A stretch of 64,000 nt of DNA. Origin: Escherichia coli. GTDB taxonomy: Bacteria > Pseudomonadota > Gammaproteobacteria > Enterobacterales > Enterobacteriaceae. The first letter of the stretch is position 1, and every line of letters starts with the position of its first letter. The notes below the pieces were generated by a model. It saw only the letters and a list, made by a program, of their open reading frames with translations, was not told the DNA's origin and did not search any database. This document shows, piece after piece, positions 13,266 through 58,242 of the stretch. The stretch lies in NCBI GenBank assembly GCA_032372955.1, contig GCA_032372955.1_4725.1. One strand, 5' to 3'. The translations under genes were made by a program, and so were the position numbers.

Positions 13266-13297
13266 CCCTCTCCCTTCCCTTACGGGTTGGGAGAGGG
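13266..13297 (+). terminator. conserved CCTCC-armed hairpin element followed by CTTATGCTG
   Basis: CCCTCTCCC-TT-CCC-TTAC-GGG-TT-GGGAGAGGG. Confidence 0.5.
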
Positions 13298-13340
13298 CTT
13301 ATGCTGTCTTATTTCGCATTACTCCAGTTTATTTCGCGAC

Positions 13341-13356
13341 TACATTACCTAGGTGA
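13341..13356 (+). promoter_or_regulatory. conserved promoter-like motif TACATTACCTAGGTGA (copy A)
   Basis: Identical 16-mer recurs at 19821; related copies at 48000 and 60503; all intergenic, upstream of + strand genes. Confidence 0.45.
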
Positions 13357-13558
13357 TAAGAGCGGTTACTGTTGTCGCTGTAAATTTCTCTTAATAATCG
13401 AGGATACAGTCATGGCCTTATTAATACGCGACCCGTCAGCATACGAAAACACGCGTTATAACCATAACCAGTTCGGCAATAATTTCTAACAAAGAACGAT
13501 CAATCTATGCATTGATTCTTCTATCCGCAATCCACCTAACATAGAAAGGTAAAATACG

Positions 13559-14128
13559 ATGTTTAATCCAGAAATCATGATTCTTGATCCTTGGTACCTC
13601 AACAAACTTCCAGGAATCAAAATGCCAGGCGATCCTCACGCATTCGATTTGATGGTCGTTGCCGAAGTTACCAGCAATACGGTTAACACCATCGACGATG
13701 ATGAGGTTCCTGTTGAAGAGGTGTTCTCTGTTACGACGACATTACTGGAAAGTCGAGAGCTGACCGAAAACGGCAGCGCCGATGAAATCATTCCTATCGA
13801 TGGTGAGATGGAGATCATGTTAACACAGGTCGAGTTGCACCATCGTGTCGCACCAACAAAAGACACGCCTTATGACAATGAACCTGCAGAACAACCTGAT
13901 GAAAACGGTCGAGTGAAACTTGCTGACATCGACGACGATGCTCTTGAAGATATCGACGAAAACGAAGAAACGAACTTCTACCAAGCTGAAGCGAAAGAAG
14001 CGTTTGATAAAGCGGTTCAGCATGATCGACGTATCACCGAGAAGATGATCCAACAACAACTTATCGGTAAACGTCTTAAGCTCGAATTCGCAAGCGGGGT
14101 GCTTACTACCTGGTCACTCATCGTCTAA
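13559..14128 (+). CDS. highly acidic hypothetical protein
   Basis: 189-aa ORF, AAAGG RBS; large D/E excess; sits downstream of promoter-like motif at 13341. Confidence 0.6.
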   Translation: MFNPEIMILDPWYLNKLPGIKMPGDPHAFDLMVVAEVTSNTVNTIDDDEVPVEEVFSVTTTLLESRELTENGSADEIIPIDGEMEIMLTQVELHHRVAPTKDTPYDNEPAEQPDENGRVKLADIDDDALEDIDENEETNFYQAEAKEAFDKAVQHDRRITEKMIQQQLIGKRLKLEFASGVLTTWSLIV

Positions 14129-14197
14129 AACCGAAACAACGTTTTCATTTCCAATCACATACTCAACAATCTAAATCCAATTAAGAGGACAACATTT

Positions 14198-14599
14198 ATG
14201 TTTAATATTCTTAGTGTACCGCGTTCCCCTGTCAGTTCTTACTTCGGTATTATGACCAGTAAAGAACACAACGTGGAATATACTGTTATCGCTAAAGATC
14301 CATCACCGATCAACGTAACGTTTGCTGAAGGTACTACCGAACTCGTTCCGTTAAATGGTGAATTCAGTAAACCTGTTAACGGCGTCTACGAACTTATCAC
14401 TCGCGATCCGAATAACAACGCGACCTACCGTGTGGTGTGTGCGTTCAACAATAACAAATTGGTTATTGTTGCGGATAGCCGTGGGTTATCGTGGATGGCT
14501 GAGGAAGGCACACATCGTTACTACGAAGAATGCTTACGAACCGCAGGCATCTACGATCTGGTAATGGACGCCCGTGCTAAAAACGACCGGATGTTTTAA
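14198..14599 (+). CDS. hypothetical protein
   Basis: 133-aa ORF with AAGAGGA RBS. Confidence 0.55.
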   Translation: MFNILSVPRSPVSSYFGIMTSKEHNVEYTVIAKDPSPINVTFAEGTTELVPLNGEFSKPVNGVYELITRDPNNNATYRVVCAFNNNKLVIVADSRGLSWMAEEGTHRYYEECLRTAGIYDLVMDARAKNDRMF

Positions 14600-14605
14600 A
14601 TTATC

Positions 14606-14932
14606 ATGATTACTCGAGAAATCATTTACGACGCTATTATCGAATGCCGCCATCGCGTCATGCGTGGAACGGTGTATAACTACCACTTAAACAACATTAT
14701 CAGTGAATGTACGGCGGTGATGACTAGCGCGCTGGGTAAACCTAGCGCTATCGCACTCTATCCAAACATCACTGAACAGGAGCAAATCAATATCGAAAAC
14801 CAACGTCGAGTGAATCGCCAATACGATGTAACAGCCATGCACGCATGGCTTATCGTTGCAGCGAAACTCAACACGCTTCTCACTGAGAACGGCTGGAAAT
14901 TTTCACCTAATGAATTCATGACAATAAGTTAA
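14606..14932 (+). CDS. hypothetical protein
   Basis: 108-aa ORF 6 nt after the previous stop; no clear RBS. Confidence 0.45.
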   Translation: MITREIIYDAIIECRHRVMRGTVYNYHLNNIISECTAVMTSALGKPSAIALYPNITEQEQINIENQRRVNRQYDVTAMHAWLIVAAKLNTLLTENGWKFSPNEFMTIS

Positions 14933-15002: not shown

Positions 15003-15006
15003 GCGT

Positions 15007-16617: not shown

Positions 16618-16656
16618 CGACTCAATCCTTTCGATACTTGCAAAGAGGTAATCATA

Positions 16657-19736: not shown

Positions 19737-19748
19737 TACATAAGTCAG

Positions 19749-19778
19749 CCTCCCTCAGCCCGTAAGGGTTGGGGGAGG
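19749..19778 (+). terminator. conserved hairpin element variant followed by TTTCTATG
   Basis: CCTCCC-TCAG-CCC-GTAA-GGG-TTGG-GGGAGG, downstream of the capsid gene and its extension. Confidence 0.5.
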
Positions 19779-19820
19779 TTTCTATGCCGTTTACGTTGTG
19801 AATAGAAAAAATTTGACGCT

Positions 19821-19836
19821 TACATTACCTAGGTGA
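19821..19836 (+). promoter_or_regulatory. conserved promoter-like motif TACATTACCTAGGTGA (copy B)
   Basis: Exact repeat of copy A, ~150 nt upstream of the 19986 gene. Confidence 0.45.
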
Positions 19837-19985
19837 CAGACGCCTGCGATGAATAAGGCATAGACAACACGTAAGGTCGTTCTCGCGCTAGGAACGATGC
19901 TGAAACCGTCGGCTGTCGGCTCGATAAGAACAAGAAAAGGGAAATGCGTTATGCGTGATAGTTTTCAATCAGATGGAGGTTGACG

Positions 19986-21422
19986 ATGCCCTCCATGCCA
20001 ATATGTGATACCGCGTTCGAACCGTGGGATGGTACGCACGCTTATCGCATTGACGGTTATGCTGAACCGTTATATGACCTGGAATTAGGATGGGCATGTA
20101 TTAATGAATCTGGCCATACCGTGTTGGTGATCACCTCCGACAATATGTTCCAGTACATTCCTGGTAGGGTTGAGGACGGCAATACATTCAGGATCGTACG
20201 ACGTTCAAAATTTCGTAGTCCTGTAATAGTTGACAGCCATGACGTATCTAATGCGAATGGTGCATTCAGAAACTTCGTCTACGCGGGTAGACGTCGGGAT
20301 ATACTCCGTGTTAAAAACGGCACAGGTTACGCGATAAGGAAACCGCATATCCGTCGTATTGTTAACACAGAGAAAATGCCGCGTCTACTAGACCAGCAAG
20401 ACTGGTACGATACGCTGGATGAAATATGTCAAATTGACCTCAACACGTTGAACTTTAATCAACCCGCATATGTCGCGCAAATCAACGTGGCAATCGTAAA
20501 AGTTAAAGGAGAATACAAAAGCGCAGACCACGTTACGAAAGGGATTGATCACCCCTACATCGCAACGTGCGCGCGGAGCTTGACGGGAAAAACAGAGGGT
20601 TTCCGAATTCTCGGAACGCAACTCACTATCCATTGGACGCCACCCGACTTTCATAATCCGTATAGCTTATGGGTTAACGTGTTAGGGAAAGCGTTCGAAA
20701 TAAAACCAACGAATGGAGCAGGCGCGCCAGGTATGTTGGTTACCTTCGGGAATAATGACTCCATCTTCGTACCGGTCGAAGATTTGGAAAAAGAGATGTG
20801 GAAGTACAATGTTTTTCCGACACGTGAATCGGCATTGCATTGGCGCGACCCCGTCCAAAAAGAAGCCTACAAAAATGATTTCGACCAACGTAGCTACGAA
20901 CGTAAGGCATCGGAAGAAACCCTTAAAGGGGTGATGGCTGAAATGCGACGTATGGCGGATGAACACAAGGCAGTTATCGCACAGATGCATGAGGCGCATC
21001 GCGCCGACGCAAAGCTGCGCGATGAACAACATAAAGCCGAACTCGATCAGCTTAAAGACGAACAAAAACGTAGGATGGAACAACACCAAGCCGAAATGAA
21101 ACGTCAAGATGATCTACGTAAACAAATACACGAAGATTATCAAGCTGATTTAAAACGTCGTGATGATGAGGCTAAACGCAAACATGAAGAATTCGTCGCT
21201 GAACTTCGTCGTCGAGATGAAGAATCCAAACGTAAGCACGACGAGTTTGCTGCTGAGATACGCCGACGTGATGAAGAGGCAAAAAGACAACGTGAAGCGG
21301 AAGAAGCGCGACGTCAACGTAACGTCGATGTTTGGAAAGCCGCTGCGAGTATAACTGCGGCCGTTGTCGGTATAGGTATGACCTTTTTCAAGATTCTTGA
21401 GAAGGCGTCATCGAAAAAGTAA
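19986..21422 (+). CDS. hypothetical protein with charged helical repeats and C-terminal transmembrane anchor
   Basis: Start chosen at ATG 19986 (GGAGG RBS). C-terminal ~130 aa is E/R/K-rich with tandem RRRDEEAKRKHEEF repeats, then hydrophobic AAASITAAVVGIGMTFF. Confidence 0.65.
   Translation: MPSMPICDTAFEPWDGTHAYRIDGYAEPLYDLELGWACINESGHTVLVITSDNMFQYIPGRVEDGNTFRIVRRSKFRSPVIVDSHDVSNANGAFRNFVYAGRRRDILRVKNGTGYAIRKPHIRRIVNTEKMPRLLDQQDWYDTLDEICQIDLNTLNFNQPAYVAQINVAIVKVKGEYKSADHVTKGIDHPYIATCARSLTGKTEGFRILGTQLTIHWTPPDFHNPYSLWVNVLGKAFEIKPTNGAGAPGMLVTFGNNDSIFVPVEDLEKEMWKYNVFPTRESALHWRDPVQKEAYKNDFDQRSYERKASEETLKGVMAEMRRMADEHKAVIAQMHEAHRADAKLRDEQHKAELDQLKDEQKRRMEQHQAEMKRQDDLRKQIHEDYQADLKRRDDEAKRKHEEFVAELRRRDEESKRKHDEFAAEIRRRDEEAKRQREAEEARRQRNVDVWKAAASITAAVVGIGMTFFKILEKASSKK
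21153..21314 (+). repeat. tandem ~54-nt (18-aa) coding repeats
   Basis: KRRDDEAKRKHEEFVAEL / RRRDEESKRKHDEFAAEI / RRRDEEAKRQREAEEARR read directly from the translation. Confidence 0.6.
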
Positions 21423-21461
21423 CTTTAATCTGCTTAAGCAACTTTCTGAAAGGAGTGTGTG

Positions 21462-23258
21462 ATGGATCCTAGATTCTGCAAAGCTGTCGCTGAGCTTGCA
21501 CCGAAGATGAACGAGAAGATAGCACGCAACATCGTCGTCGATAAGATGCAAGATGTTGAGTCCTATGTTGATCGTCTTTGGCGGAACAGCAAAGATAGTT
21601 TACCTAAGGATCTGGTGTATCATGGCCTGCGTCGCTGCATGGCCCGCGAACAGTTCCACTACTTAAGCGGAGGAAAGAAAACCAAAGGGAAGGATAGCGG
21701 TAAGCTGACCTTCGACCTTGCGCCTTCCGATGTGTTTATGGTGATGCTGGAATTCCGCTGGTACGGCGCAATGGAATCAGGTGACCGTCGTGAACCAGGA
21801 AAGGACTACTGCATTATCCGACACCCTCTCCTATTGCCCGCGGTAGGTCAGGGTGGTAAAATGCGTCTACGTGGTGCGAACTTCATTCTCAGTGCGGTGC
21901 TCGCTGACCCTGTAATCAGTTACACGAAAGACATGGCGTTCATCATGCTTCCGCGTGACAAAATCACGGTTAAACGTACACCGTATCAGTTCCTGAGCAA
22001 TGATACACCGACCGGTATCGATTATCGTCATTACCTATCATTACCCTGGTCGCAAATCTATCATCTTACCAAACAAAGTAAAGTGAACGGTGACAACATC
22101 AACCACACCAGCGTAACCACACTGGGTCACTATCTCTTTGCGAAGTATGGGGTGGGTGAGTGTTTCCGACGTTTTGCAGGCGTCGAAGCCGTAACCGGAC
22201 GGAACCTTGCTGAACGTGATTTTCCGCGCGACCAATGGGTAATCTATCGCACCATGGGGGTTATTCCTAAAGGCTTTAGTATCAGCAAAAGCGGTAAAAG
22301 CCGTAGCGCTAGCGCTGTACGTTACAAGCATCCTGATATTCAAATTGCCGTAAGACGTGGAGGCACGGAACGTATTGTTCTTGGCCTTGTCGGCGCATTC
22401 TTGTATCTCATCGACCGTTATTACGATCGTTTTCCGGAAGACTATCCGGTTGAAGAGTTCGCGAATGCGCCAGACCATTGGCGTACATTACTCGGTTTGA
22501 TTATCTTTAATAACAACAATGCAGATGCGCGTTTGTTGCGTGATGTAAACCACCACATCGACAGTCTCGATCTTTACGTTGACGAGATTCAGCAGAAGAA
22601 GTTCAAACAGGAAAATATTCCTTGCGATGACTTCTACGAATTTATGGCGTATCTGATTGACAATGTTACTATCGAAATGAGTCGTGTTGATACCACGACG
22701 ATGTTCGGTAAGGAATTGATGGTGTTGGAATATGTCATGGAGGATGTGCGTAAGAGCATCTTTAAACTGGGGTTCCATCTTAAAACCACAGAACGTGGTA
22801 AACGACAGAACAACCGTAAAGAGATGACCAATCGCGATGTACAGAAGGCGTTGCGAAATCAAGTTGCGACGGAAGCGATTCTCAATATCCAGAGCAATCG
22901 TGATAAGCGTGAGAAAGTGGCAACATCGATTCAGTCACCTGGTGATTGCATGCTGTTCAAAGTGAGCACGCATGTTGTTCTCCAGAGCCAAAATGCAGGC
23001 GGTGCTGCATTGGCTGACGAGAGTCGTTTGGTTAGTGGTTCCATCCCGTTCTGTGCAAGCTATCTGAATCTTCCACACTCCGAACCAACCGGACGTCAGA
23101 AGTTCAGTATGTACGCACCTATCGACGAACGTGGTCGGTTAATCATTACCCCACAAATTGCAAATGACGTTGCAGCAACCAATGCAGGCTTGAAGAAAGA
23201 CGTCGGTCGATTCGATGAAGAAATTGTAGAAATTAACGATCACGACATAATCGATTGA
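21462..23258 (+). CDS. hypothetical protein
   Basis: Start chosen at ATG 21462 (AAAGGAG RBS, 6-nt spacer); 598 aa. Confidence 0.65.
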   Translation: MDPRFCKAVAELAPKMNEKIARNIVVDKMQDVESYVDRLWRNSKDSLPKDLVYHGLRRCMAREQFHYLSGGKKTKGKDSGKLTFDLAPSDVFMVMLEFRWYGAMESGDRREPGKDYCIIRHPLLLPAVGQGGKMRLRGANFILSAVLADPVISYTKDMAFIMLPRDKITVKRTPYQFLSNDTPTGIDYRHYLSLPWSQIYHLTKQSKVNGDNINHTSVTTLGHYLFAKYGVGECFRRFAGVEAVTGRNLAERDFPRDQWVIYRTMGVIPKGFSISKSGKSRSASAVRYKHPDIQIAVRRGGTERIVLGLVGAFLYLIDRYYDRFPEDYPVEEFANAPDHWRTLLGLIIFNNNNADARLLRDVNHHIDSLDLYVDEIQQKKFKQENIPCDDFYEFMAYLIDNVTIEMSRVDTTTMFGKELMVLEYVMEDVRKSIFKLGFHLKTTERGKRQNNRKEMTNRDVQKALRNQVATEAILNIQSNRDKREKVATSIQSPGDCMLFKVSTHVVLQSQNAGGAALADESRLVSGSIPFCASYLNLPHSEPTGRQKFSMYAPIDERGRLIITPQIANDVAATNAGLKKDVGRFDEEIVEINDHDIID

Positions 23259-23292
23259 CACATAACCGAATAAATAAAAAGGATCGTAAGAA

Positions 23293-25851
23293 ATGTATAA
23301 TGGCAGTAACAACATGTATCAACAAATGGGCTATAGCGAAAACCCTTATACGAGCACGGTTAATTATGCGGCTGAACAGGTTCGTCAGCAACAGTATCAG
23401 CAATCACCGTACGGCGCATATCCGAATAACGCCTATCAACCACCACAATACCAACAACCCTCATATCAGCAGAACTATAACTTCATCACCCAAGAAGCAA
23501 CGATCGTCAAAATCCGTCAAGCTATCTTTAATGTCCTGAAAGACTTCGCTCAGCAAGACAAAATACAAACCGAGTTCGTCGCACGTTATACCAATAACGA
23601 TATGATGATGGAATCGCTTGTTGAAGACTGTTGTTGGAACGTGTTCTCTTACATCAACCCGATGCCGCAGAACGCGTCCGACGACCAGATCGTCTCTGCT
23701 GCCGTGAGCACAGTTGCGCTGTATCATCTTGTAACGTGGCTCTTTGAACCGAATCAGTACCCGGAATATTATCGCGCGATTGAATTATCACGCATTAACC
23801 CGGAAGCCGCGAATAAGTACACGCAGCTGAATAAAAGCGGGAGCCTGGCACAAATCGCGCAGAAGTCACGTGGTTTGAAGCAGCAGGTGATGCAGATGGG
23901 GATGACTTATCGTGGCCCGCAAGCAAGCGCGATGGTTAGTGGCGGGTACGGTCAACCACAACAGCCAGCGTACGCCATGTATGGTGGAACCTATCCGCAA
24001 CCGCAATACCAGCCTAATCCGGCAGTTATGCGTGGTATGGCTCCAACAACGCCAGGATACGGCGCACAACCTCGGCCGACGGTTGTTCAACCACAAGCGC
24101 CATCGTACATCGATTCGAAGGATTGTGCGTTCAACCGTTTGTATGATGTTGGTGATGACGATCCTATCGTTGATGATGCACCTGCTGCTACAGCGCCGCG
24201 TTACGAGGCACCACAACCACGGATTTACTCGACAAATCCTGAAGGAGATATTGGTGGTATCAACGATATCTTTGCAGCGGCTGAACAGTTTGCTGAACAG
24301 TACGAAGAGCCAGAATGGCATGTTAAGGCTGGGCAGCAGAAACCCGTTCAACCTGAACCTGCGCAGGTGAAACCGGAACCCGTTCGTACGGCTCGTTCTG
24401 CTACGGTAACAAAGACCGTTAATCCAATTGATGCGACCGAAGATGCTAAGCGTTACGGTCGTGTTGTTCAACATGAAGAATTTATGCAGATGCGTCTGAA
24501 AGCCAAAGACTTTGCACCTAATAGTCGTTGGCCGACGTTGTATGACTTCAGACACTTCGCTCGTCGGGCACGTATCGACGAAAACGGAATTCTTCATGAA
24601 ACCATTGTTGACATTACATCCCTCACGGAGGAAGAAGTGGAATACATCGAACTTGAATCAGATCCAACCGCTCGTCGTATGGCAGAGCAGGAAATGGCAA
24701 AACTGGATCGTATCGCGCAAGCAGAAGTTGTTCGTGTTAGCCTTAACAAACCGGTTCAGCGTGAGCCAATCGTTGTCGGTGAGCAGCGCGAAATGAAACT
24801 GTTTACCGTCACCGACGCGATCGCAGCGTCAAGCGTTGAGGATGCTGAAACCAAAGCTGCGGTAGCGATCATCCAGCAGACCAACACCGACGTCAACCAA
24901 AACGACGCATTAGCATTCCTGGCTACCGTCAATTCCTATCTGGGAACCTATACCGACAAAGAGCTAGATGCAATCCATGAATTCCTGGATGCGTTGTCTA
25001 TTGATAAGGGTCGTAGCGACGATATCAAAGCTTATCGTCAGATCATGCAACAGTATCGTGATGTCATTCCTCTGCGTATTTGGCATTTCCTGAACGATAG
25101 CATGACCAAAGACGTTAACAAGCTGATCAAACGTATCGTACCGAAGAACTTCTCTGAAACCACCATCTCTAGCTTCGTTGATGATATCGGAGAACTGTCC
25201 GGTTGGCTGATTCACGATCTTAAAATGGACCAGAAGTTCATTGAAGATGAATTCTCCAATTGCTACTACACCTGGGTCAACATGCTGAAGTGTCTCTACT
25301 GCAATCGCGATGGCGAAGGTCAGTGGAACATTCGTCTTTCCATGGCTGAACTGTACAACATGCATGACTACCTGAAAGCCGCTCACGAAAAATCTGCAGC
25401 GAATCGTGAACGTCATCTGGTTGCCATGAGTGAGTATCGTGCAGAACTGGAGAAAGATGGCTCTCTGGATGCTGACGAAATCGAACGTCGTTTGGCGGAT
25501 GCGGCTATCGAGGATATGCGTGTTAATCCAGACATCGTTACCGACGAAGATAGCAACGATGCTTACTGGTTCAATCACAGCGTATTCGCGATGCGTCCGC
25601 ATGTTGTTGTTCGCGTACCGACCAACGCCAAGATTCTGAAGCTGAACCAGAGCGGTTACACTCACGCATCGGCTGCAACCAACCCAAGCATTGCTCGTAT
25701 GCTGGATCAGGTGTTCAAGACCTTCGAAACCAAAGTAAAAGGTCTGCAATCTGTTACTGTAATTCTGAGCGATGATACTCGTCTGAAAGCAGTACGTACG
25801 GTAAACGGTATTACCGCTTCCGAGTATCTGCTGGAACGTGAAGAGCAGTAA
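23293..25851 (+). CDS. hypothetical protein with Q/Y/P/G-rich low-complexity regions
   Basis: 852-aa ORF, AAAGGA RBS; N-terminal ~65 aa and residues ~190-270 are Q/Y/P/N/G-rich. Confidence 0.7.
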   Translation: MYNGSNNMYQQMGYSENPYTSTVNYAAEQVRQQQYQQSPYGAYPNNAYQPPQYQQPSYQQNYNFITQEATIVKIRQAIFNVLKDFAQQDKIQTEFVARYTNNDMMMESLVEDCCWNVFSYINPMPQNASDDQIVSAAVSTVALYHLVTWLFEPNQYPEYYRAIELSRINPEAANKYTQLNKSGSLAQIAQKSRGLKQQVMQMGMTYRGPQASAMVSGGYGQPQQPAYAMYGGTYPQPQYQPNPAVMRGMAPTTPGYGAQPRPTVVQPQAPSYIDSKDCAFNRLYDVGDDDPIVDDAPAATAPRYEAPQPRIYSTNPEGDIGGINDIFAAAEQFAEQYEEPEWHVKAGQQKPVQPEPAQVKPEPVRTARSATVTKTVNPIDATEDAKRYGRVVQHEEFMQMRLKAKDFAPNSRWPTLYDFRHFARRARIDENGILHETIVDITSLTEEEVEYIELESDPTARRMAEQEMAKLDRIAQAEVVRVSLNKPVQREPIVVGEQREMKLFTVTDAIAASSVEDAETKAAVAIIQQTNTDVNQNDALAFLATVNSYLGTYTDKELDAIHEFLDALSIDKGRSDDIKAYRQIMQQYRDVIPLRIWHFLNDSMTKDVNKLIKRIVPKNFSETTISSFVDDIGELSGWLIHDLKMDQKFIEDEFSNCYYTWVNMLKCLYCNRDGEGQWNIRLSMAELYNMHDYLKAAHEKSAANRERHLVAMSEYRAELEKDGSLDADEIERRLADAAIEDMRVNPDIVTDEDSNDAYWFNHSVFAMRPHVVVRVPTNAKILKLNQSGYTHASAATNPSIARMLDQVFKTFETKVKGLQSVTVILSDDTRLKAVRTVNGITASEYLLEREEQ

Positions 25852-25871
25852 TTAACTTATCGTCCGACGGC

Positions 25872-25893
25872 GGGTATTGTATTTGCAATACCC
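25872..25893 (+). terminator. intergenic hairpin
   Basis: GGGTATTG-tatttg-CAATACCC after the 852-aa gene; no T tract. Confidence 0.35.
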
Positions 25894-25912
25894 TAGTTGA
25901 TAAGGAAACCGT

Positions 25913-26185
25913 ATGAGTCAATATAAACTCATTACCGTCTCTGTGGATGCAAAGGACTTACGCGAAATTACGTTAGCAGCCAACGCAGTTCAACAGGACA
26001 GTGAACTGACGGCATATGAACGTTACCAGCTTTTCCTCTCGATAAGCGACACGGTAGCACGTATGCAACAGAAGTACCAGGTTCAGCTAACCGTAATCGA
26101 CAAAGGCGCTGTGATCCCACCACACCCTAGTTGGCGCGTACTGAGAAGCAAACTCACCACAATTGAATCGTGGTTAACCTCGTAA
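25913..26185 (+). CDS. hypothetical protein
   Basis: 90-aa ORF with AAGGAAA RBS. Confidence 0.5.
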   Translation: MSQYKLITVSVDAKDLREITLAANAVQQDSELTAYERYQLFLSISDTVARMQQKYQVQLTVIDKGAVIPPHPSWRVLRSKLTTIESWLTS

Positions 26186-26205
26186 TAAATTAAATAGCGC
26201 ATAGC

Positions 26206-26264
26206 CCTTCTCCCCTTCCCTCATCGGGTTGGGGAGAAGGTTAACTATGTGTTATTTTTTTTTT
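26206..26264. terminator. conserved hairpin element plus T-run between convergent genes
   Basis: CCTTCTCCCC-TT-CCC-TCATC-GGG-TT-GGGGAGAAGG, TTAACTATG, then 10 T at 26255-26264. Confidence 0.6.
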
Positions 26265-26272
26265 ACGTCCGT

Positions 26273-35308: not shown

Positions 35309-35341
35309 CCCCTCCTCCTTCCCTGTTGGGTTGGAGGAGGG
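35309..35341. terminator. conserved hairpin element between convergent genes
   Basis: CCCCTCCTCC-TT-CCC-TGTT-GGG-TT-GGAGGAGGG followed by TTATG and T-rich sequence. Confidence 0.55.
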
Positions 35342-45682: not shown

Positions 45683-46225
45683 TTAGCCAACAACGCTAAC
45701 GGTCGGTTTCACGAAGCCATCAGCTACGTTATCCGCCAGAACGGTTGCCAGGTCATCTTTCGGTGCAGCTGCGTAGGTCAGTGCAACCTGCAGAGTGCCG
45801 GTATATACCAGGCCATTCTCGATCGCATTCAGAGTTACCTGACCAACAGTACCTGCAGACAGCTGGAAGGTTTCTTCATTGATTTCACCGGTCAGGGAAG
45901 CCAGACCGAATTTGGTGACCAGCTTGCTTACCAGCTCGGAAGCCTTAATGCTGTCGGTACCGTGCGGCAGTTCGAAAGTAACATCGCCAGTTACATCAGC
46001 GAAAACTTCGGACAGAGCCAGACGATCGTAGTAGAACTGCTGAGTACCCTGCAGGTTAGCTGCTTCAGCTGCAGCATCCAGCTGAATAACGGTGTTCTTT
46101 TCATGTTCGGAAGACGTCTGCGGAGTACCGAACTGCAGTTCTTCTTCGGTCAGCGTGCGGGTTGCTTTGGTGTTGATAAGATCAAGCAGAAGGGATTTCG
46201 CTGCTTTGTTAAAGTCTAAGGCCAT
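45683..46225 (-). CDS. abundant small protein, short member of the YYDR/LxYTG paralogue family
   Basis: Start chosen at internal ATG (MALDFNK) with GAGGACA RBS; high-expression codon usage like the capsid gene; motifs FYYDRLAL, TKFGLASLT, LVYTGTLQV. Confidence 0.65.
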   Translation of the reverse strand: MALDFNKAAKSLLLDLINTKATRTLTEEELQFGTPQTSSEHEKNTVIQLDAAAEAANLQGTQQFYYDRLALSEVFADVTGDVTFELPHGTDSIKASELVSKLVTKFGLASLTGEINEETFQLSAGTVGQVTLNAIENGLVYTGTLQVALTYAAAPKDDLATVLADNVADGFVKPTVSVVG

Positions 46226-46366
46226 GATAATGTGTCCTCTGATTTTTGATGGTCGAAAAGGAGATTCGGAGTCGTTCTCCATAATATTTACATTAATATA
46301 AAATATATTAATTTCTGTAAACACTTACATCTTTTGAGAGTGATGTAACAACCATAGAGGTAGAAA

Positions 46367-47260
46367 ATGGCAACTCAAGTTTCGCTTACTTTAAAAACAC
46401 CTTGGCAACTTATCGTTGATGAGATTAACAAACTCAACGCCGACACTGGTGCCAGCTTCCAATACACCGACCTTAAATACGTTCTTAAAGAAAAGAATCC
46501 TTCTGCTCCAGAAGCAACTTTAACGCTTAGCCCTGGTGATGGTACCCCTTACTTCAATAACCGTGATGTTACCTACCATCGTCTGGATCTGGCTAAATGG
46601 TTCCAGAAAATCGCTGTACGTGTTAACGTTACTGCTGACACCACCATCGGTGATGTGGTTGACCTTGTAGCTCAACGCTACGGTATGATCACACCGACCG
46701 GTGAGAAGTTCCTGGATAAAGATAAAGACATCAAAGCCGATACGTTATCTAATCCGGTTACCTTCAACGAGCATGGTATCCAGACGATCACCCTGGAAGC
46801 TAAAGAAGATTCGTTGGCGTGGTACGGCTCTGTTCAAGTTAAAGTTTATAACACCACGCTGGATCTGGCTAACATCATCAAGGTTACCAATCTGGGTAAC
46901 TTAACCTACGTTGATGAAGGCGACGGCACCAAAACGTCAGCACGTCTGTTAACCTATCCGTTAGACTTCAGTACTTACACCGCAGGTTTACAAGCTATTA
47001 CCAGCAACGATACCAAGATCGATGCAGGCTTAGCAGGTAACCTGACTACCCTGATCAAAGAGCAGACTGGTGTAAGTGATGATATCATCAATGAACTGAA
47101 AACCAATCTGCAAACAGCTACCTTTGTCTATAACGGTGCTACCACCGGGTCTACTGACAAAGGTGTTAACGCTACGTACAGCAATGTGCTGGTGCTGTCG
47201 TTAGCTGACGGTACTCACACCTACGGTAAAGCAGTATTCGGTTATAACGTTTCCGAATAA
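46367..47260 (+). CDS. paralogue family protein, member 5
   Basis: 297-aa ORF, AGAGG RBS; motifs VTYHRLDLA, QRYGMITP, LAWYGSVQV; divergent from the 45683 gene. Confidence 0.65.
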   Translation: MATQVSLTLKTPWQLIVDEINKLNADTGASFQYTDLKYVLKEKNPSAPEATLTLSPGDGTPYFNNRDVTYHRLDLAKWFQKIAVRVNVTADTTIGDVVDLVAQRYGMITPTGEKFLDKDKDIKADTLSNPVTFNEHGIQTITLEAKEDSLAWYGSVQVKVYNTTLDLANIIKVTNLGNLTYVDEGDGTKTSARLLTYPLDFSTYTAGLQAITSNDTKIDAGLAGNLTTLIKEQTGVSDDIINELKTNLQTATFVYNGATTGSTDKGVNATYSNVLVLSLADGTHTYGKAVFGYNVSE

Positions 47261-47276
47261 TTTTAATTAATCTCTC

Positions 47277-47308
47277 CCTTCCTCCTTCCCTGTTGGGTTG
47301 GAGGAAGG
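47277..47308 (+). terminator. conserved hairpin element followed by TTTATG
   Basis: CCTTCCTCC-TT-CCC-TGTT-GGG-TT-GGAGGAAGG. Confidence 0.55.
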
Positions 47309-48097
47309 TTTATGTTTGTGATTATTCTTCTCTTTTATAATTTCTAATGATAAGATTAAGTACCTGGAGTAAAAGTTTACAGATGTTGTAAATGTATTTG
47401 GAAAGTAAAATTTCCACGACCTCGGCCCCTTCGGGGGACGGGGGAGGAGCGAAGTCCTTTAGAGACGAGCAACAGGATAACTCTAAGAAAAAGAAAAACT
47501 AAACGAGCGAAGCGAGTTTATGTTTTTATCCTTAGAGTTATCAAGCTATAAGCGTAGCGTTAGCGTATAACGGTTATGTCGTATACGAATGCAATGAGTA
47601 TAGACGAGATACTCTGATGAACAACGTGAAGAAGAGTATCACAAATGTTTTTTGAGTTATCCGGATTTAACTAGCATGTAACGAAGTGTAATGCACAGAT
47701 GACATGTGTTACCGTTAAGGTAGTAAACACATGTTATCCATTGTTTTGAAGATAAGCTTATTAACTTACTTTTAAATCAATTTAAATATACAAACAACTT
47801 AAACATACCAAGATAAAACAATTGAACCTAAGATAAACAAGATAACTTAGACAATACACTTTTAACGAATACAGATAACATCTTACTTAAATCAAAATAC
47901 CTATCCTCGTTTACCTTCCTTGCTTGCAACACCTCTTCTAAATCCATCCCTTCTTAAGAAACAACAAAACCCTTACTGTAACACAAATCCTTTCACGACT
48001 ATATTACCTAAGTGATGCGTACGTACGATGTTCGTATTGCGTCAAATAGAACTCAATACGTTGTTTAATTAACGTGAAAAACAGAGGAACTTTTTAA
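47309..48097. other. 789-bp AT-rich non-coding region with inverted and direct repeats
   Basis: No ORF of 60 aa or more; 12-bp inverted repeat 47476-47487 / 47531-47542; five AGATAA copies 47750-47880; direct repeat CTTACTT(TT)AAATCAA at 47765 and 47882. Confidence 0.6.
48000..48015 (+). promoter_or_regulatory. conserved promoter-like motif TATATTACCTAAGTGA (copy C)
   Basis: Preceded by TTTCACGAC as in copy D; ~80 nt upstream of the 48098 gene cluster. Confidence 0.45.
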
Positions 48098-48880
48098 ATG
48101 AACGATGAAATCATTTTTGATACCATGTTTACTGGAGATGAATACCTGGCGTTACCGAGCGATGTTCAAAACGAATGCGTGAAGGTAGCATGCTACAGCG
48201 GCGGTCAGGCTGGGATGCGTGTACGTTGCGTTGACGGGACGAACGGGAAAGTTGTTTGGCGTGGTGCTCACACGTACCCTTACCTGCTTACCGGCAACAA
48301 GAATTGGTACGCTCATCGCAGCCAGCATCCTGCACGGATGAGCGCGAGCGGATTCGTGGTACGTGGTGCGTTGGATGAACGGGTGGAACGCATCGAGATC
48401 ACCGATCGCGCGTTCATCGATCAGCTTGCACAGGTTGCTTACGATGAGGGACGTGCAACAGGGCGATACGGTTGGTTGAAGGTGAACAGCGATACGCAAT
48501 TACAGGTAGGATTCCATCACGCGCTTCCTGGGTGGGCGAACCATACCGTTGGAACGTATTACACCAAAAAGCTTACCATGGTGAAACCTTACATGGCGGA
48601 TGCGAGCTTGGAGGCAACGGATCAGATGCATCAATTGCTTCGCATGTATTATCCACGGGTGGTGCATCCACTTGGGTTCGCTTGGGTCAGCGAAGTGCGC
48701 TACAACCCACGCAAGAAACGCGTTGAAGCGAAGGTGCTTAACGAACGTTGGTTACCGGTTGTGCAACCAGGGCTTGACGATGAATCCATCATGATGCGGG
48801 TAAGCCGAAGCCGGTTCGTACAATGGGATGCTACCATGCTACAACGCCCACAACACGTTACAGGAGAAACGTTCGCATGA
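48098..48880 (+). CDS. hypothetical protein
   Basis: 260-aa ORF, AGAGGAA RBS; first gene after the AT-rich region and promoter-like motif. Confidence 0.6.
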   Translation: MNDEIIFDTMFTGDEYLALPSDVQNECVKVACYSGGQAGMRVRCVDGTNGKVVWRGAHTYPYLLTGNKNWYAHRSQHPARMSASGFVVRGALDERVERIEITDRAFIDQLAQVAYDEGRATGRYGWLKVNSDTQLQVGFHHALPGWANHTVGTYYTKKLTMVKPYMADASLEATDQMHQLLRMYYPRVVHPLGFAWVSEVRYNPRKKRVEAKVLNERWLPVVQPGLDDESIMMRVSRSRFVQWDATMLQRPQHVTGETFA

Positions 48881-49176
48881 TACGCGCAACAGGATACGAA
48901 AACAAAGGCAAGAACAGCGTGCAGCGTTACGTTGCCGACGAGGAAGGGAAAGCAGAATACCTGGATTGGTTCAACCGTTACAGCGCAAGCAAGGTACGTG
49001 ATCCTAGCATCCTGAGGTTACAGAGCAGTTTCCAATGGCAGGCTTCCGAACAACGCTGGTACATCACGTTGGAAATCGGAACGGTACGGGAAGACCAGCT
49101 TCCTGCATACTTAAAAGAACAACGGGAGCAGATCAACACATTACTCGCACAACACAAAACGGAACCTAAACCTTAA
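48877..49176 (+). CDS. hypothetical protein
   Basis: Start chosen at ATG 48877 (CAGGAGAAA RBS), ATGA overlap with upstream stop. Confidence 0.5.
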   Translation: MIRATGYENKGKNSVQRYVADEEGKAEYLDWFNRYSASKVRDPSILRLQSSFQWQASEQRWYITLEIGTVREDQLPAYLKEQREQINTLLAQHKTEPKP

Positions 49177-49216
49177 TCCAACACCAACAAGCGAAAAGGA
49201 AAGTACAACAGAAATC

Positions 49217-49492
49217 ATGTTGATGAAACCGACAGCAAAGAACAAGGTTTATAAAGCAATCTACGCGTCAGACACAGTCAGCCTGACGAAGATCATCAAA
49301 TACAAACTTGAGAAGGTGCTACGTGTTGAACCGAGCATAGGCTTAGTCCGTTATCGCCTGATTACCGAGAACGGTGAAGGGTATTACGCACCGTCGTCTC
49401 GAAGCGATAACGCCGTTGTGTTAACCCGGGATGTGGTTGAAGCAATCAACAACGGAACGAAGGCGTTCTACGCGCACAGAAAAGCCGTATAA
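49217..49492 (+). CDS. hypothetical protein
   Basis: 91-aa ORF; RBS weak. Confidence 0.45.
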   Translation: MLMKPTAKNKVYKAIYASDTVSLTKIIKYKLEKVLRVEPSIGLVRYRLITENGEGYYAPSSRSDNAVVLTRDVVEAINNGTKAFYAHRKAV

Positions 49493-49569
49493 CGCAATAA
49501 ACGAATCCAAAGAAGGGAAACTATACCTTAACTTAAAACGACGCTTAGAGAGCGTTACAGGAGCTTAGA

Positions 49570-49977
49570 ATGCAACATGATCAAACGAACACCACCGCAA
49601 CGTCAATAGCCCTTGCCGATGCCGTCCAGGCGTGGAACGAGAACCCAGCCTGTCGAGCAAAGATGGAATTGGTGTACGAAGGATCAACCCGTGTCAGGAC
49701 GGCTGATGATGTTCTGGTCGTACGAGGTGAATTCTTCGCCTTAGGTGTCACGGACCGTGGTCCGTTAGATGCGCTTTGGATCGAGTTACAAACCTGCCCG
49801 CAGAGACCACGCTACGTGACCCGTGACCATCGTCCTGAGAACGCGTTGGTCGGAACCGGTTCCGTGGATATTTTCATCTGGCAGGATACCCTCGACAACA
49901 TGAACAAGATGATCGACGTTGAGAACATCGTTGCAAATAAGTTAACCCAACTTAAAGAACGTCTGATGCCGCTATAA
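49570..49977 (+). CDS. hypothetical protein
   Basis: 135-aa ORF, AGGAG RBS. Confidence 0.55.
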   Translation: MQHDQTNTTATSIALADAVQAWNENPACRAKMELVYEGSTRVRTADDVLVVRGEFFALGVTDRGPLDALWIELQTCPQRPRYVTRDHRPENALVGTGSVDIFIWQDTLDNMNKMIDVENIVANKLTQLKERLMPL

Positions 49978-50089
49978 CGCATCAACATCACCCGCCTGTA
50001 CCTCATCGTGTTCGGGCGGGGCAATAAGAAACCAAGGGGACATCGCCGTCCCCGTTACTATCATCAACCACTATCAAGAGGAACCTACC

Positions 50090-50533
50090 ATGGAAATTAA
50101 ATTCTGTAAATCGATCGCGATTGTACCTGAACAACCTGCGGATGATCTCGAAAAGCTCGATCATCCCACACTGCAACATGCGCTGGAACGTTTAGCCTCT
50201 TTTGCGCCGTTAGAGAATCATCTTCACTGCGTTAATCTTGAAGCATCCGACTTCGACGTGAAGCTTGGGTTCGTGTTTTCACAAACGGGGAAGGATGTGT
50301 TAGAAAACATATTCTGGTCTGCTGAGCATAAGGCGAGAAATGTGATGACGAAGTTAGTTTATAACGTTAGCCTTAGTGAAGACGGCACCTATTGGACGTC
50401 AGAGGCTTGCTGGACGATTTCTGCGATTTCACGAATGGACAAAATACACTATTTGCATCGTGTTGCTGATAGCATTGTACACCAACTGGATCGTTTTGAT
50501 ACCACCCGCTTATCGAATGGAACACAGTGTTAA
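50090..50533 (+). CDS. hypothetical protein
   Basis: 147-aa ORF, AGAGGAA RBS. Confidence 0.55.
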   Translation: MEIKFCKSIAIVPEQPADDLEKLDHPTLQHALERLASFAPLENHLHCVNLEASDFDVKLGFVFSQTGKDVLENIFWSAEHKARNVMTKLVYNVSLSEDGTYWTSEACWTISAISRMDKIHYLHRVADSIVHQLDRFDTTRLSNGTQC

Positions 50534-50548
50534 TACGAGGAATCGAAC

Positions 50549-50977
50549 ATGCAAATTAAATGGCCTGAATCAGCAGTAACTGCAGCGCGCGTTGGTCTTT
50601 ATCATTCGCTGGTTGCTCAGCATACCAGCTTACATCGCACCCTATCACTTTTACGCGAAGACGAAAAACTACGTGAACACATTCAGCCGATCTCAGCATC
50701 AATGAATGCGAACACGTTGTCTATGCGTTGCGTTCGATTGACTTTTGTGTGTACCACGTTAGGAAAGACGTTGCTTGAGGCTGCCTATCTTCGTTGTTGC
50801 GAAAGCACGACGTTCACCGACGATATGGTGTTGTCGATCGAGATGTATTGTCAGACAAATGGAATACGTCAACCGCAGATAGTTTGGAAAATATACGGAT
50901 TGACACCAAAAGTAATCAGCACGAAGTTAGATGCGGTTGCTAATAGCCTTAATGAAATTTTGAAAGAAGGAATTTGA
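50549..50977 (+). CDS. hypothetical protein
   Basis: 142-aa ORF, GAGGAA RBS. Confidence 0.55.
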   Translation: MQIKWPESAVTAARVGLYHSLVAQHTSLHRTLSLLREDEKLREHIQPISASMNANTLSMRCVRLTFVCTTLGKTLLEAAYLRCCESTTFTDDMVLSIEMYCQTNGIRQPQIVWKIYGLTPKVISTKLDAVANSLNEILKEGI

Positions 50978-50978
50978 T

Positions 50979-51341
50979 ATGCAACAACGTATCGGTTTAT
51001 CGCTCGCCATTGACCGACTGATCAAAGTCTCATCGTTACGAAGTGAATTTGTTGGCGTCCGTGAAGAAGCGGCGAATAACCGCTGTATTTTAACGTTTAC
51101 GTGTACCAAGAAAGGCGTGACGGTTATCCGTGATGTTTGGGACGCTGTGAACAAACGTGAACCCCGCTGCTCGGTATCTGTCGTTGATTACAAAAACCTG
51201 GATAATACTTACACTATCCGTTTAGAATGGGAGCATCGCCTCAGGACATTCGTTGAAGTTCGGTCGAAGCTGTTAGCTGAATTGTTGAACGAAGCCTGTT
51301 TACGTGACGAGAACGCTACAGAACTCTTCAGAACGCTTTAA
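50979..51341 (+). CDS. hypothetical protein
   Basis: 120-aa ORF, AAGGAA RBS; starts 2 nt after the previous stop. Confidence 0.55.
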   Translation: MQQRIGLSLAIDRLIKVSSLRSEFVGVREEAANNRCILTFTCTKKGVTVIRDVWDAVNKREPRCSVSVVDYKNLDNTYTIRLEWEHRLRTFVEVRSKLLAELLNEACLRDENATELFRTL

Positions 51342-51447
51342 TTCAATCTTAGATAAGGAAACCCCTTAGAAATTAAAACAAACCGTTATACGTCGTTCTG
51401 TGACGTTTAAGCTATACATTGAACTCATGGCAATCGAGGAAAGAAAA

Positions 51448-51837
51448 ATGTTAAATTCAACTTTTACCCACTATCTCCACACCTATGCAAAATTATGCTG
51501 CGTTGACATGGAAGAGCTCGCGAACGATAATACTGTTCGCGATTGTGAGATGCTTCCTAAGCGACAAGGTTTTCTACCCGGTTCGCGGTCAGCGGCGTTC
51601 TTCTTAATCGCTTACTTCATCGTTAGTCATAGTGCGGCGCTGTTGAGCCAAACCAAGAAACAGCGAAAGGATTACGCTACCGCAATCACTCAAGTTTATT
51701 TCGATCGTCTTCACGGACGTGCAGTGAGTATCGATACCGCGTTAACGACCGCGTTTCGTCATCGAGGCGCAACCGCGGTACAGCTACCTGCTTTGGTTAA
51801 GATCGGAAAAGAAATCATCCAGAATGCAACGCGTTAA
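51448..51837 (+). CDS. hypothetical protein
   Basis: Start chosen at ATG 51448 (GAGGAAAG RBS); 129 aa. Confidence 0.5.
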   Translation: MLNSTFTHYLHTYAKLCCVDMEELANDNTVRDCEMLPKRQGFLPGSRSAAFFLIAYFIVSHSAALLSQTKKQRKDYATAITQVYFDRLHGRAVSIDTALTTAFRHRGATAVQLPALVKIGKEIIQNATR

Positions 51838-51852
51838 TAAATAAACCATAAA

Positions 51853-51909
51853 CCTTCCTTCCCCGGCCTTTACGGCTAGGGAAGGAGGTTGTATAGCATT
51901 TCTTTTTTT
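51853..51909. terminator. imperfect member of hairpin family plus T-run between convergent genes
   Basis: CCTTCCTTCCCCGGCC-TTTAC-GGCTAGGGAAGGAGG then TCTTTTTTTATT. Confidence 0.45.
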
Positions 51910-52996: not shown

Positions 52997-53039
52997 GCTG
53001 TAATCTCCTACTGATTTAAATAACGATATAGAAAATAAC

Positions 53040-53083
53040 GCTGAAGTATGGCTTCAGCTTCGCATTCTGAACCCGTGGTTCAG
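53040..53083. promoter_or_regulatory. two adjacent inverted repeats upstream of the Rad50-like gene
   Basis: GCTGAAG-TATGG-CTTCAGC (53040-53058) and CTGAACC-CGT-GGTTCAG (53067-53083). Confidence 0.35.
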
Positions 53084-53110
53084 AAGGTATCGAAGAAGGA
53101 TTATCATAGC

Positions 53111-55567: not shown

Positions 55568-55588
55568 GACAAATAAGGATTTCTGTTG

Positions 55589-57012: not shown

Positions 57013-57044
57013 CAACTCGTACAAAACCCAAGAAGGAAAACGTT

Positions 57045-58226: not shown

Positions 58227-58242
58227 TTAATTGGAGCGGGGA

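What the first reader, a model, noticed from the sequence alone, without database searches (positions are those of the whole stretch)
48000..48015. Conserved promoter-like motif TTTCACGRCTAYATTACYTARGTGA upstream of four + strand genes
A 16-bp core occurs at 13341-13356 and 19821-19836 (identical TACATTACCTAGGTGA) and at 48000-48015 and 60503-60518 (TATATTACCTAAGTGA / TATATTACTTAAGTGA, both preceded by TTTCACGRC). All four are intergenic, on the + strand, 25-200 nt upstream of a gene start (the acidic protein, the charged-repeat membrane protein, the small-gene cluster, the C-terminal-TM protein). A degenerate version (TATCACGACCTCAATAACGGTAAGTG) lies upstream of the capsid gene at about 17312-17337. 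Conservation of this length is not expected by chance; it looks like a phage-specific promoter, possibly an early class.
Basis: seen in the sequence. Interest (0 to 1): 0.65.

Follow-up and report, generated by a model that had tools for sequence, protein, structure and literature searches.

The report
Early promoters of a Goslar-like jumbo phage
The repeated 25-base motif is real and is almost certainly the early-gene promoter read by the RNA polymerase that this E. coli nucleus-forming jumbo phage injects with its DNA; this promoter class is already known from phiKZ and its relatives, so the finding is sound but ordinary.

Summary
The window comes from a relative of Escherichia phage Goslar (about 92-96% DNA identity; Chimalliviridae). 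The four motif copies exist exactly where stated. All are on the + strand and intergenic, 24-203 nt upstream of a co-oriented gene. A weight matrix built only from Goslar copies outside the window-syntenic region scores them at 34-46 bits. The next best position scores 7 and the best of 100 random windows scores 18.

Goslar has exactly 14 such sites. They lie upstream of chimallin (chmA) and of homologues of the non-virion RNA polymerase subunits PHIKZ068, 074 and 123, which are hallmark early genes. The PHIKZ123 homologue lies in this window, downstream of site 19821.

The same architecture (A-tract, TTTCA, N5, ATATTAC, N5, TG) precedes chmA in phiKZ, RSL2, RAY, Eowyn and Proteus phage 10. 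It matches the published early-promoter consensus: phiKZ TATATTAC, and N1M2 TTTCARRYAKATATTATYWAAGTGWA.

The claimed fifth, degenerate copy at 17312 is no better than chance.

Verdict: these are virion-RNA-polymerase early promoters, a new member of a known kind. Interest is low to moderate.

The parts
13332..13356 (+). Early promoter copy P1, TTTCGCGACTACATTACCTAGGTGA. Weaker conservation extends about 11 nt further upstream. Predicted start site about 13354-13356.
   Evidence: PWM score 34.4 bits with orthologues left out. Conserved in Goslar and in IMGVR_3300011560.
19812..19836 (+). Early promoter copy P2, TTTGACGCTTACATTACCTAGGTGA. Predicted start site about 19834-19836.
   Evidence: PWM score 41.3 bits. 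Identical in Goslar at 43266.
47991..48015 (+). Early promoter copy P3, TTTCACGACTATATTACCTAAGTGA, the copy named in the finding. Predicted start site about 48013-48015.
   Evidence: PWM score 36.0 bits. Across four Goslar-like genomes only positions 8, 12 and 19-22 vary, and the sequence diverges right after TGA.
60494..60518 (+). Early promoter copy P4, TTTCACGGCTATATTACTTAAGTGA. Predicted start site about 60516-60518.
   Evidence: PWM score 46.5 bits. Identical in four genomes.
13411..14932 (+). Predicted early unit of P1: a possible 25-aa ORF (13411-13489), then genes 13559-14128, 14198-14599 and 14606-14932. None has a family match.
   Evidence: The unit is closed by the conserved hairpin at 14948-14980.
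19986..26185 (+). Predicted early unit of P2: four genes, 19986-21422, 21459-23258, 23293-25851 and 25913-26185. The second is a homologue of PHIKZ123, a non-virion RNA polymerase subunit.
   Evidence: PHIKZ123, chain 7ogp_E, E 5.8e-41. (phrog_2943 'polymerase', E 7e-120)..
48098..51837 (+). Predicted early unit of P3: eight small genes of unknown function, equivalent to Goslar_00021 to Goslar_00014.
60542..61232 (+). Predicted early unit of P4: one 218-aa gene (60542-61198) followed by a 12-bp-stem terminator-like hairpin (61205-61232).
   Evidence: A terminator is annotated at the orthologous place in Goslar.
13266..13297 (+). Conserved terminator-like hairpin about 35 nt upstream of P1. It closes the preceding structural-gene unit.
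19749..19778 (+). Conserved terminator-like hairpin about 35 nt upstream of P2, after the major capsid gene.

Best explanation
The four copies are early promoters of a Goslar-like chimallivirus. They are read by the multisubunit virion RNA polymerase (vRNAP), which is packaged in the capsid and injected with the DNA.

Inferred anatomy, numbered from a start site at the G/A of the terminal TGA:
- a loosely conserved A-rich stretch around -35 to -24;
- TTTCA at about -23 to -19;
- an extended -10-like element, (C)TAYATTAC, at about -15 to -7;
- a variable 4-5 nt spacer;
- an invariant TG(A) at the start site.

Transcription begins right after injection and independently of host RNA polymerase. 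It yields short co-oriented units that are insulated from the surrounding late structural genes by conserved hairpin terminators. One unit in this window carries a subunit of the second, non-virion polymerase that takes over middle and late transcription.

Shown here: the motif, its statistics, its position and orientation, its orthology to the family's early-promoter consensus, and the identity of the downstream genes. Inferred: which polymerase reads it, the start site, and the timing.
For: 1. The window is 92% identical to Goslar. Chimalliviridae use a vRNAP for early genes and an nvRNAP for later ones.
2. The four sites are sharply separated from background: 34-46 bits against 7.2 for the next best position and 18.4 for the null maximum. 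The matrix was trained only on 10 Goslar sites outside the syntenic region.
3. Goslar has exactly 14 sites (24.5-40 bits, next 10.5). All are intergenic and 24-203 nt upstream of a co-oriented gene (annotation). Non-coding DNA makes up only 7% of the syntenic 64 kb.
4. The Goslar sites head chmA (Goslar_00189, followed by an RNAP beta'-like gene), the PHIKZ074 homologue, the PHIKZ068 homologue and the unit holding the PHIKZ123 homologue. chmA and the nvRNAP genes are the genes stated to be transcribed by vRNAP.
5. The published consensus sequences match in sequence and spacing: phiKZ TATATTAC, 201phi2-1 TTTRARR_BTATATTACDWHDGTG, OBP TTTYARRYAKATATTATYWWADTG, N1M2 TTTCARRYAKATATTATYWAAGTGWA.
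6. The regions upstream of chmA in phiKZ, RSL2, RAY, Eowyn and Proteus phage 10 carry A-tract + TTTCA/TTTGA/TTACA + N5 + ATATTAC + N5 + TG, and PhiPA3 and Noxifer carry ATATCAC variants. The core sits at -79 from the ATG in both phiKZ and Goslar. PHIKZ054 has a mapped primary start site tied to the early motif, described as an extended -10 box plus a T-rich motif upstream of -19.
7. Among four Goslar-like genomes, substitutions fall only at positions 8, 12 and 19-22. Similarity ends right after TGA in one genome.
8. In a Goslar RNA-seq study, the sequence shown for the chmA start site begins 91 nt upstream of the ATG. That is 2 nt before the TTTCA of the motif copy there.
Against: No transcript 5' ends or timing data for this phage or for the four orthologous Goslar sites could be examined. 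The supplementary expression table was not available. The legend about the chmA start site is ambiguous: if the start were literally at -91 it would lie upstream of the motif, not downstream. Fourteen sites is fewer than phiKZ's 28-32 early promoters, while 175 of 249 Goslar genes are detected by 5 min. So either the units are long or other early signals exist. Flanks at sites 1, 2 and 4 are about 97-100% identical between genomes, so conservation there says little. Most downstream genes have no known function. How vRNAP recognises the motif is not known for any family member.
Confidence: 0.87

Rival explanations
1. The motif is a promoter for the host sigma-70 RNA polymerase, with TAYATT serving as the -10 hexamer.
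For: TATATT matches TATAAT at 5 of 6 positions. The consensus scan flags site 48000 with GTAACA-16-TATATT at 9/12.
Against: The other three sites are not flagged. The conserved upstream block TTTCACGRC lies only 0-9 nt from TAYATT, not 17 nt. Sigma-70-like matches are fewer than in shuffles throughout (6 vs 10.9, 17 vs 28.6, 6 vs 9.7). Chimallivirus infection is rifampicin-insensitive and independent of host RNAP. The motif is conserved in Pseudomonas, Ralstonia and Erwinia phages whatever the host.
Confidence: 0.03
2. The motif is a promoter of the non-virion polymerase (middle class), or a site used by both polymerases, rather than a strictly early vRNAP promoter.
For: Polymerase assignment rests on homology only. 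PHIKZ054 has both an early and a middle promoter. Many Goslar genes stay expressed throughout infection.
Against: phiKZ middle promoters have a TACT motif near -22 and late promoters have TATG at the start site, both unlike this motif. The motif precedes the nvRNAP subunit genes themselves, and nvRNAP cannot be the first to transcribe those. It matches the element labelled early in phiKZ, 201phi2-1, OBP and N1M2.
Confidence: 0.06
3. The motif is a binding site for a phage regulator (operator), or part of a dispersed or mobile repeat, and not itself a promoter.
For: TCAC and GTGA form a 4-bp inverted repeat around the core. Some copies share up to 42 nt at 95% identity, for example Goslar 2567 and 166069, which suggests duplication.
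Against: The inverted repeat is absent from many copies and from other family members. Similarity among copies is limited to about 45 nt. Every copy is co-oriented with the gene immediately downstream. There is no stable DNA or RNA hairpin. The only matches outside Goslar-like genomes are two chance hits inside one coding sequence.
Confidence: 0.04

Closest known systems
phiKZ early promoters (virion RNA polymerase; 28-32 sites; core TATATTAC plus a T-rich element upstream of -19)
   Same: Same core (TAYATTAC vs TATATTAC) and the same T-rich/TTTCA block 5 nt upstream. Both have a TG 5 nt downstream and sit intergenic and co-oriented. Both precede chmA, at -79 from the ATG in each.
   Different: The Goslar-lineage version is conserved over a longer stretch (25 nt, weaker to about 45 nt). 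It has a G+C-containing CACGRC between TTT and the core and tolerates C at core position 3. There are only 14 sites per genome, and nothing has been tested experimentally.
Predicted promoters of Klebsiella phage N1M2, Pseudomonas phages OBP, 201phi2-1 and EL
   Same: N1M2 TTTCARRYAKATATTATYWAAGTGWA aligns without gaps to TTTCACGRCTAYATTACYTARGTGA, with TTTCA, N5, AYATTAY and YWARGTG(A) in register.
   Different: The core ends in T rather than C in OBP, N1M2 and EL, and the spacer bases differ. Those sites are also bioinformatic predictions.
Bacillus phage AR9 early promoters (vRNAP of a uracil-DNA jumbo phage)
   Same: The same logic applies: an over-represented AT-rich motif near -10 upstream of early operons, confirmed by dRNA-seq and primer extension.
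   Different: Different sequence, a non-nucleus-forming phage, and uracil DNA.
T7/SP6-type single-subunit RNA polymerase promoters
   Same: A roughly 23-25 nt highly conserved phage-specific motif that runs up to the start site. There is a superficial shared ACGACT.
   Different: No single-subunit polymerase is annotated in Goslar. The family uses split beta/beta' multisubunit enzymes. The motif is orthologous to the phiKZ class instead.
Coliphage N4 vRNAP early promoters
   Same: Both are read by an injected virion polymerase immediately after infection.
   Different: N4 promoters are DNA hairpins (own knowledge). The four copies here show no consistent hairpin: DNA folding energies are -0.6 to -4.4 kcal/mol, and z-scores are non-significant at three of four sites.

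Membership tests
Chimalliviridae (phiKZ-like) vRNAP early promoter | Highly conserved AT-rich element of about 8-10 nt of the TATATTAC type | tested here: met
   TAYATTAC is present in all 4 window copies. In Goslar, 13 of 14 copies have it and one has TACATAAC. The published phiKZ core is TATATTAC.
Chimalliviridae (phiKZ-like) vRNAP early promoter | T-rich element a fixed distance upstream (upstream of -19 in phiKZ) | tested here: met
   TTT(C/G)(A/G) lies 4 nt upstream of the TAYATTAC core in all 4 window copies. The equivalent block (5 nt before ATATTAC) is present in the phiKZ, RSL2, RAY, Eowyn and Proteus phage 10 chmA promoters (for phiKZ).
Chimalliviridae (phiKZ-like) vRNAP early promoter | Intergenic position, co-oriented with and closely upstream of an operon | tested here: met
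   4 of 4 window sites and 14 of 14 Goslar sites are intergenic, against 7% non-coding DNA, and lie 24-203 nt from the next co-oriented start codon.
Chimalliviridae (phiKZ-like) vRNAP early promoter | Drives the hallmark early genes (chmA, nvRNAP subunits) | tested here: met
   Sites lie upstream of Goslar chmA and of the PHIKZ074, PHIKZ068 and PHIKZ123 homologues. The PHIKZ123 homologue is in the window at 21459-23258.
Chimalliviridae (phiKZ-like) vRNAP early promoter | The genome encodes the two multisubunit polymerases | tested here: met
   nvRNAP subunit homologues were found. Further beta/beta'-like genes are annotated in Goslar. A vRNAP subunit of Goslar was used as a virion marker in the literature. 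The vRNAP genes lie outside this window.
Chimalliviridae (phiKZ-like) vRNAP early promoter | Primary transcript 5' end a few nt downstream of the core, appearing immediately after infection and rifampicin-resistant | not testable with these tools
   There is only an ambiguous figure legend for Goslar chmA. The expression table is not held.
Sigma-70 host promoter | -35 and -10 hexamers separated by 16-18 nt | tested here: not met
   Only 1 of 4 sites reaches the minimal 9/12 score. The conserved upstream block is at the wrong distance.
N4-type hairpin promoter | Short stable DNA hairpin at the promoter | tested here: not met
   No shared hairpin. Z-scores are 0.42, 0.11, 0.79 and -2.43.
T7-type single-subunit RNAP promoter | A cognate single-subunit RNA polymerase gene in the genome | tested here: inconclusive
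   None is annotated among the 249 Goslar genes. I ran no dedicated search of all ORFs.

The most novel reading that the evidence does not exclude
The Goslar lineage may have an unusually long, tripartite early promoter: a conserved A at -35/-30, TTTCACGRC, and TAYATTACCT-N3-TGA. It is paired with a near-identical 32-nt terminator hairpin about 35 nt upstream at some sites. This could mean that terminator-promoter cassettes act as portable insulators that drop early transcription units into late-gene regions, and perhaps as recombination hot spots, as proposed for T4 promoter-stem-loop cassettes. Alternatively, an extra lineage-specific specificity factor may read the longer motif.
Probability: 0.1. 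Interest if true: 0.5.

Novelty: new member of a known kind. Interest (0 to 1): 0.25.

Why it matters
The result gives a precise, testable map of the early transcription units of Goslar-type E. coli nucleus-forming phages: 4 in this window and 14 in Goslar. The GenBank record annotates terminators but no promoters, and I found no published Goslar promoter motif in the searchable literature.

It also shows that the bipartite core plus the TG at the start site is conserved from Pseudomonas and Ralstonia to enterobacterial chimalliviruses. That narrows down what the still uncharacterised vRNAP specificity determinant must recognise.

In practice the 25-45 nt element is a ready-made early promoter for engineering Goslar, as is already done with the phiKZ consensus early promoter. 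It also flags likely annotation errors. It does not reveal a new kind of system.

Tried and rejected
- **Structured 5' leader or hairpin just downstream of the motif.** RNA folds of the four predicted leaders give z-scores of -0.09, 0.85, -0.68 and 0.70. The differences between the window and Goslar are not compensatory. Rejected.
- **N4-like DNA hairpin promoter.** No shared hairpin. Rejected.
- **Host sigma-70 promoter.** Only one marginal hit. Rejected.
- **Fifth, degenerate copy at 17312 upstream of the capsid gene.** At chance level. Its 100% identity with Goslar says nothing, because the whole region is identical.
- **Longer dispersed repeat.** Similarity among copies is limited to about 45 nt.
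- **Matches outside the lineage.** An exact 19-mer scan of IMG/VR found only Goslar, two Goslar-like contigs, and two unrelated contigs where the match lies inside the same coding sequence. Those two are chance hits.
- **Distant chmA loci from one protein query.** This returned only close relatives. I used tblastn against annotated phages instead.
- **Cassette-mediated insertion.** The ~650-bp insertion in IMGVR_3300011560 at window 13260/13261 is an extra gene placed before the terminator, not between terminator and promoter. It gives no support to the cassette idea.
- **Sources I could not obtain.** Ceyssens et al. 2014 is not held. The supplementary start-site and expression tables of three papers are not held.

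Full report
**What the window is.** Window 47000-52000 matches Escherichia phage vB_EcoM_Goslar (MK327938/NC_048170; Goslarvirus, a nucleus-forming jumbo phage) at 92% identity over its full length. The window's + strand corresponds to Goslar's - strand. Other parts of the window are 94-97% identical to Goslar and to two IMG/VR contigs (3300011560_000001, 237.5 kb; 3300045988_173921, 182.9 kb), and none of these is identical to the window. So the window comes from an undeposited Goslar-like chimallivirus. The Goslar record annotates terminators but no promoters.

**Checking the observation.**
- The 16-mer TAYATTACYTARGTGA occurs four times at the stated coordinates, all on the + strand and all exact. 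Nothing else matches at up to 2 mismatches, against 0.12 expected.
- The copies extend to a 25-mer, TTTCRCGRCTAYATTACYTARGTGA. Nothing else in the window comes within 6 mismatches of it.
- To avoid circularity I built a weight matrix from the 10 Goslar copies that lie outside the region syntenic to the window. The four window sites score 46.5, 41.3, 36.0 and 34.4 bits. The next best position on either strand scores 7.2, and the maximum over 100 first-order Markov windows is 18.4.
- All four sites are intergenic, where non-coding DNA is 7% of the syntenic Goslar region. They sit 24, 83, 150 and 203 nt upstream of the next + strand start codon.
It is absent from the PWM top list. It does not reach 18/25 matches with one indel allowed, a level reached about 27 times per random window.

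**The motif in the whole Goslar genome.** Goslar has exactly 14 sites, scoring 24.5-40 bits with the next position at 10.5. All are on the gene-rich strand. Against the annotation, each is intergenic and 24-203 nt upstream of a co-oriented gene. Four of them are the orthologues of the window sites. The other ten include:
- a site 65 nt upstream of Goslar_00189, the chimallin (ChmA) gene, which is followed by an RNAP beta'-like gene;
- a site 88 nt upstream of Goslar_00165, a homologue of PHIKZ074 (E 1.3e-86);
- a site 50 nt upstream of Goslar_00175, a homologue of PHIKZ068 (E 6e-28).

In the window, the second gene downstream of site 19821 (21459-23258) is a homologue of PHIKZ123 (E 5.8e-41; phrog 'polymerase'). 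PHIKZ068, 074 and 123 are chains of the solved phiKZ non-virion RNA polymerase. Reviews state that the injected virion polymerase transcribes 'particularly chmA and the nvRNAP' and that its early promoters drive the nvRNAP subunits. The motif therefore sits where the early promoters must be.

**Relation to the known family.**
- A review of jumbo-phage polymerases says that each RNAP-encoding jumbo phage has a conserved motif upstream of presumed early operons. It is AT-rich, about 10 nt long and centred near -10, and it proved to be the early promoter wherever transcripts were profiled.
- dRNA-seq of phiKZ describes the early motif as an extended -10 box plus a T-rich motif upstream of -19. 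It also reports that PHIKZ054 (chmA) has a primary start site tied to it.
- A comparative table in the N1M2 paper gives the consensus sequences: phiKZ TATATTAC, 201phi2-1 TTTRARR_BTATATTACDWHDGTG, OBP TTTYARRYAKATATTATYWWADTG, N1M2 TTTCARRYAKATATTATYWAAGTGWA and EL WTTTYAAACCTACATTATY. The window motif aligns to N1M2 without gaps.
- As an independent test I fetched the regions upstream of chmA from eight distant chimalliviruses. phiKZ, RSL2, RAY, Eowyn and Proteus phage 10 carry A-tract + TTTCA/TTTGA/TTACA + N5 + ATATTAC + N5 + TG. PhiPA3 and Noxifer carry ATATCAC variants, and LucasX carries a more divergent one. The core lies at -79 from the ATG in both phiKZ and Goslar.

The window motif is thus the Goslar-lineage form of the family's early promoter.

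**Anatomy and likely mechanism (inferred).**
- I place the phiKZ landmarks (extended -10, T-rich upstream of -19, core centred near -10) on the 25-mer. TTTCA then falls at about -23 to -19 and (C)TAYATTAC at about -15 to -7. The start site falls at the G or A of the terminal TGA: window positions about 13354-13356, 19834-19836, 48013-48015 and 60516-60518.
- Natural variation agrees with this. At orthologous P3 in four genomes, only positions 8 (R), 12 (Y) and 19-22 change (AAG/TCA). TTTCACG, ATTACCT and TGA are fixed. In one genome all similarity ends right after TGA.
- Weaker conservation (an invariant A at 20 and 15 nt upstream of the core, and A-rich tracts) extends the element to about 45 nt.
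- P1 and P2 lie about 35 nt downstream of a conserved terminator hairpin that closes the preceding structural-gene unit. The P1 and P4 units end at hairpins (14948-14980 and 61205-61232). The early units are therefore short insulated modules set among late genes.
- A Goslar RNA-seq study reports that 175 of 249 genes are detected at 5 min and that the vesicle-enclosed vRNAP runs this programme. Its figure legend places the sequence shown for the chmA start site 91 nt upstream of the ATG, which is 2 nt before the TTTCA of the motif copy. This is suggestive, but the wording is ambiguous and the figure is not available.

**Rivals.**
- A host sigma-70 promoter is unlikely. Only site 48000 reaches the minimal 9/12 score, the conserved upstream block is at the wrong distance, and sigma-70-like matches are depleted relative to shuffles. 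The family is independent of host RNAP.
- An nvRNAP (middle or late) promoter is unlikely. Those classes have different signatures, TACT near -22 and TATG at +1, and the motif precedes the nvRNAP genes themselves.
- An operator or a mobile repeat is unlikely given strict co-orientation, similarity limited to about 45 nt and the absence of any hairpin.
- Exact matches outside the lineage are two chance hits inside one coding sequence.

**Novelty and score.** The kind of element is well known; it has been predicted since the first phiKZ-like genomes and validated in phiKZ and AR9. I found no description of the Goslar version in the searchable library, and the GenBank record lacks it. This is a new member of a known kind. 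It is useful for annotation, for engineering and for defining what vRNAP recognises, but it would not surprise a specialist. Interest 0.25.

Noticed in passing
window 2026-2038(-), 13284-13296, 14967-14979, 19766-19778, 35328-35340, 47295-47307, 63042-63054(-): A second repeat family: seven near-identical ~32-nt hairpins of the form CCCTCCTCC-TTCCC-TGTT/TTAC-GGGTT-GGAGGAGGG. The pattern GGGTTGGRGRAGG gives 7 matches against 0.08 expected. Each sits at the end of a transcription unit, and two sit about 35 nt upstream of early promoters. They are probably a lineage-specific terminator class. The simple terminator scan misses them because the T-run is weak.
   Followed up: partly
window 47261-48097: An ~840-nt stretch with no ORF of 40 aa or more and low G+C (0.41 for 46001-48000). 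It is also gene-free in Goslar (14972-15825). It holds several hairpins (47277-47308, 47476-47542 with 20-nt arms, 47698-47738) and repeated AGATAA(C/A) words at 47749-47880, directly upstream of promoter P3. There is no Rfam or tRNA hit. It could be a non-coding RNA, a regulatory region or an origin.
   Followed up: partly
window 13301-13489: The 62-aa ORF annotated in Goslar as Goslar_00047 starts upstream of promoter P1 and overlaps it. A 25-aa ORF (13411-13489, MALLIRDPSAYENTRYNHNQFGNNF) with a GAGGA Shine-Dalgarno sequence 7 nt upstream fits the predicted transcript better. It shows two amino-acid differences from Goslar.
   Followed up: partly
window 21459-23258: This gene, annotated only as a hypothetical protein in Goslar (Goslar_00039), is a clear homologue of PHIKZ123, a subunit of the solved phiKZ non-virion RNA polymerase (E 5.8e-41).
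   Followed up: yes
L016 1622-2274 (IMGVR_UViG_3300011560_000001), equivalent to window 13260/13261: A close relative carries an extra ~210-aa gene, inserted between the stop codon of the 455-aa structural gene and the terminator hairpin that precedes promoter P1.
   Followed up: partly
Goslar 2567 and 166069 (L015, L007); window 60481-60522: Two promoter copies in different parts of the genome share 42 nt at 95% identity (AATCCAACATTTTTCACGGCTATATTACTTA...). This suggests promoter duplication or gene conversion rather than mere convergence on a consensus.
   Followed up: no
window 13000-20200, 19700-26400, 47000-64000: Sigma-70-like promoter matches are fewer than in dinucleotide shuffles in all three scanned regions (6 vs 10.9, 6 vs 9.7, 17 vs 28.6). 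This fits a genome that does not rely on host RNA polymerase.
   Followed up: no
window 17340-17360: Upstream of the major capsid gene (17427) lies TTTACTGATACTATAGTGG, which contains TACT words. TACT near -22 is the reported phiKZ middle-promoter signature, so this may be a middle or late promoter. I did not test it.
   Followed up: no
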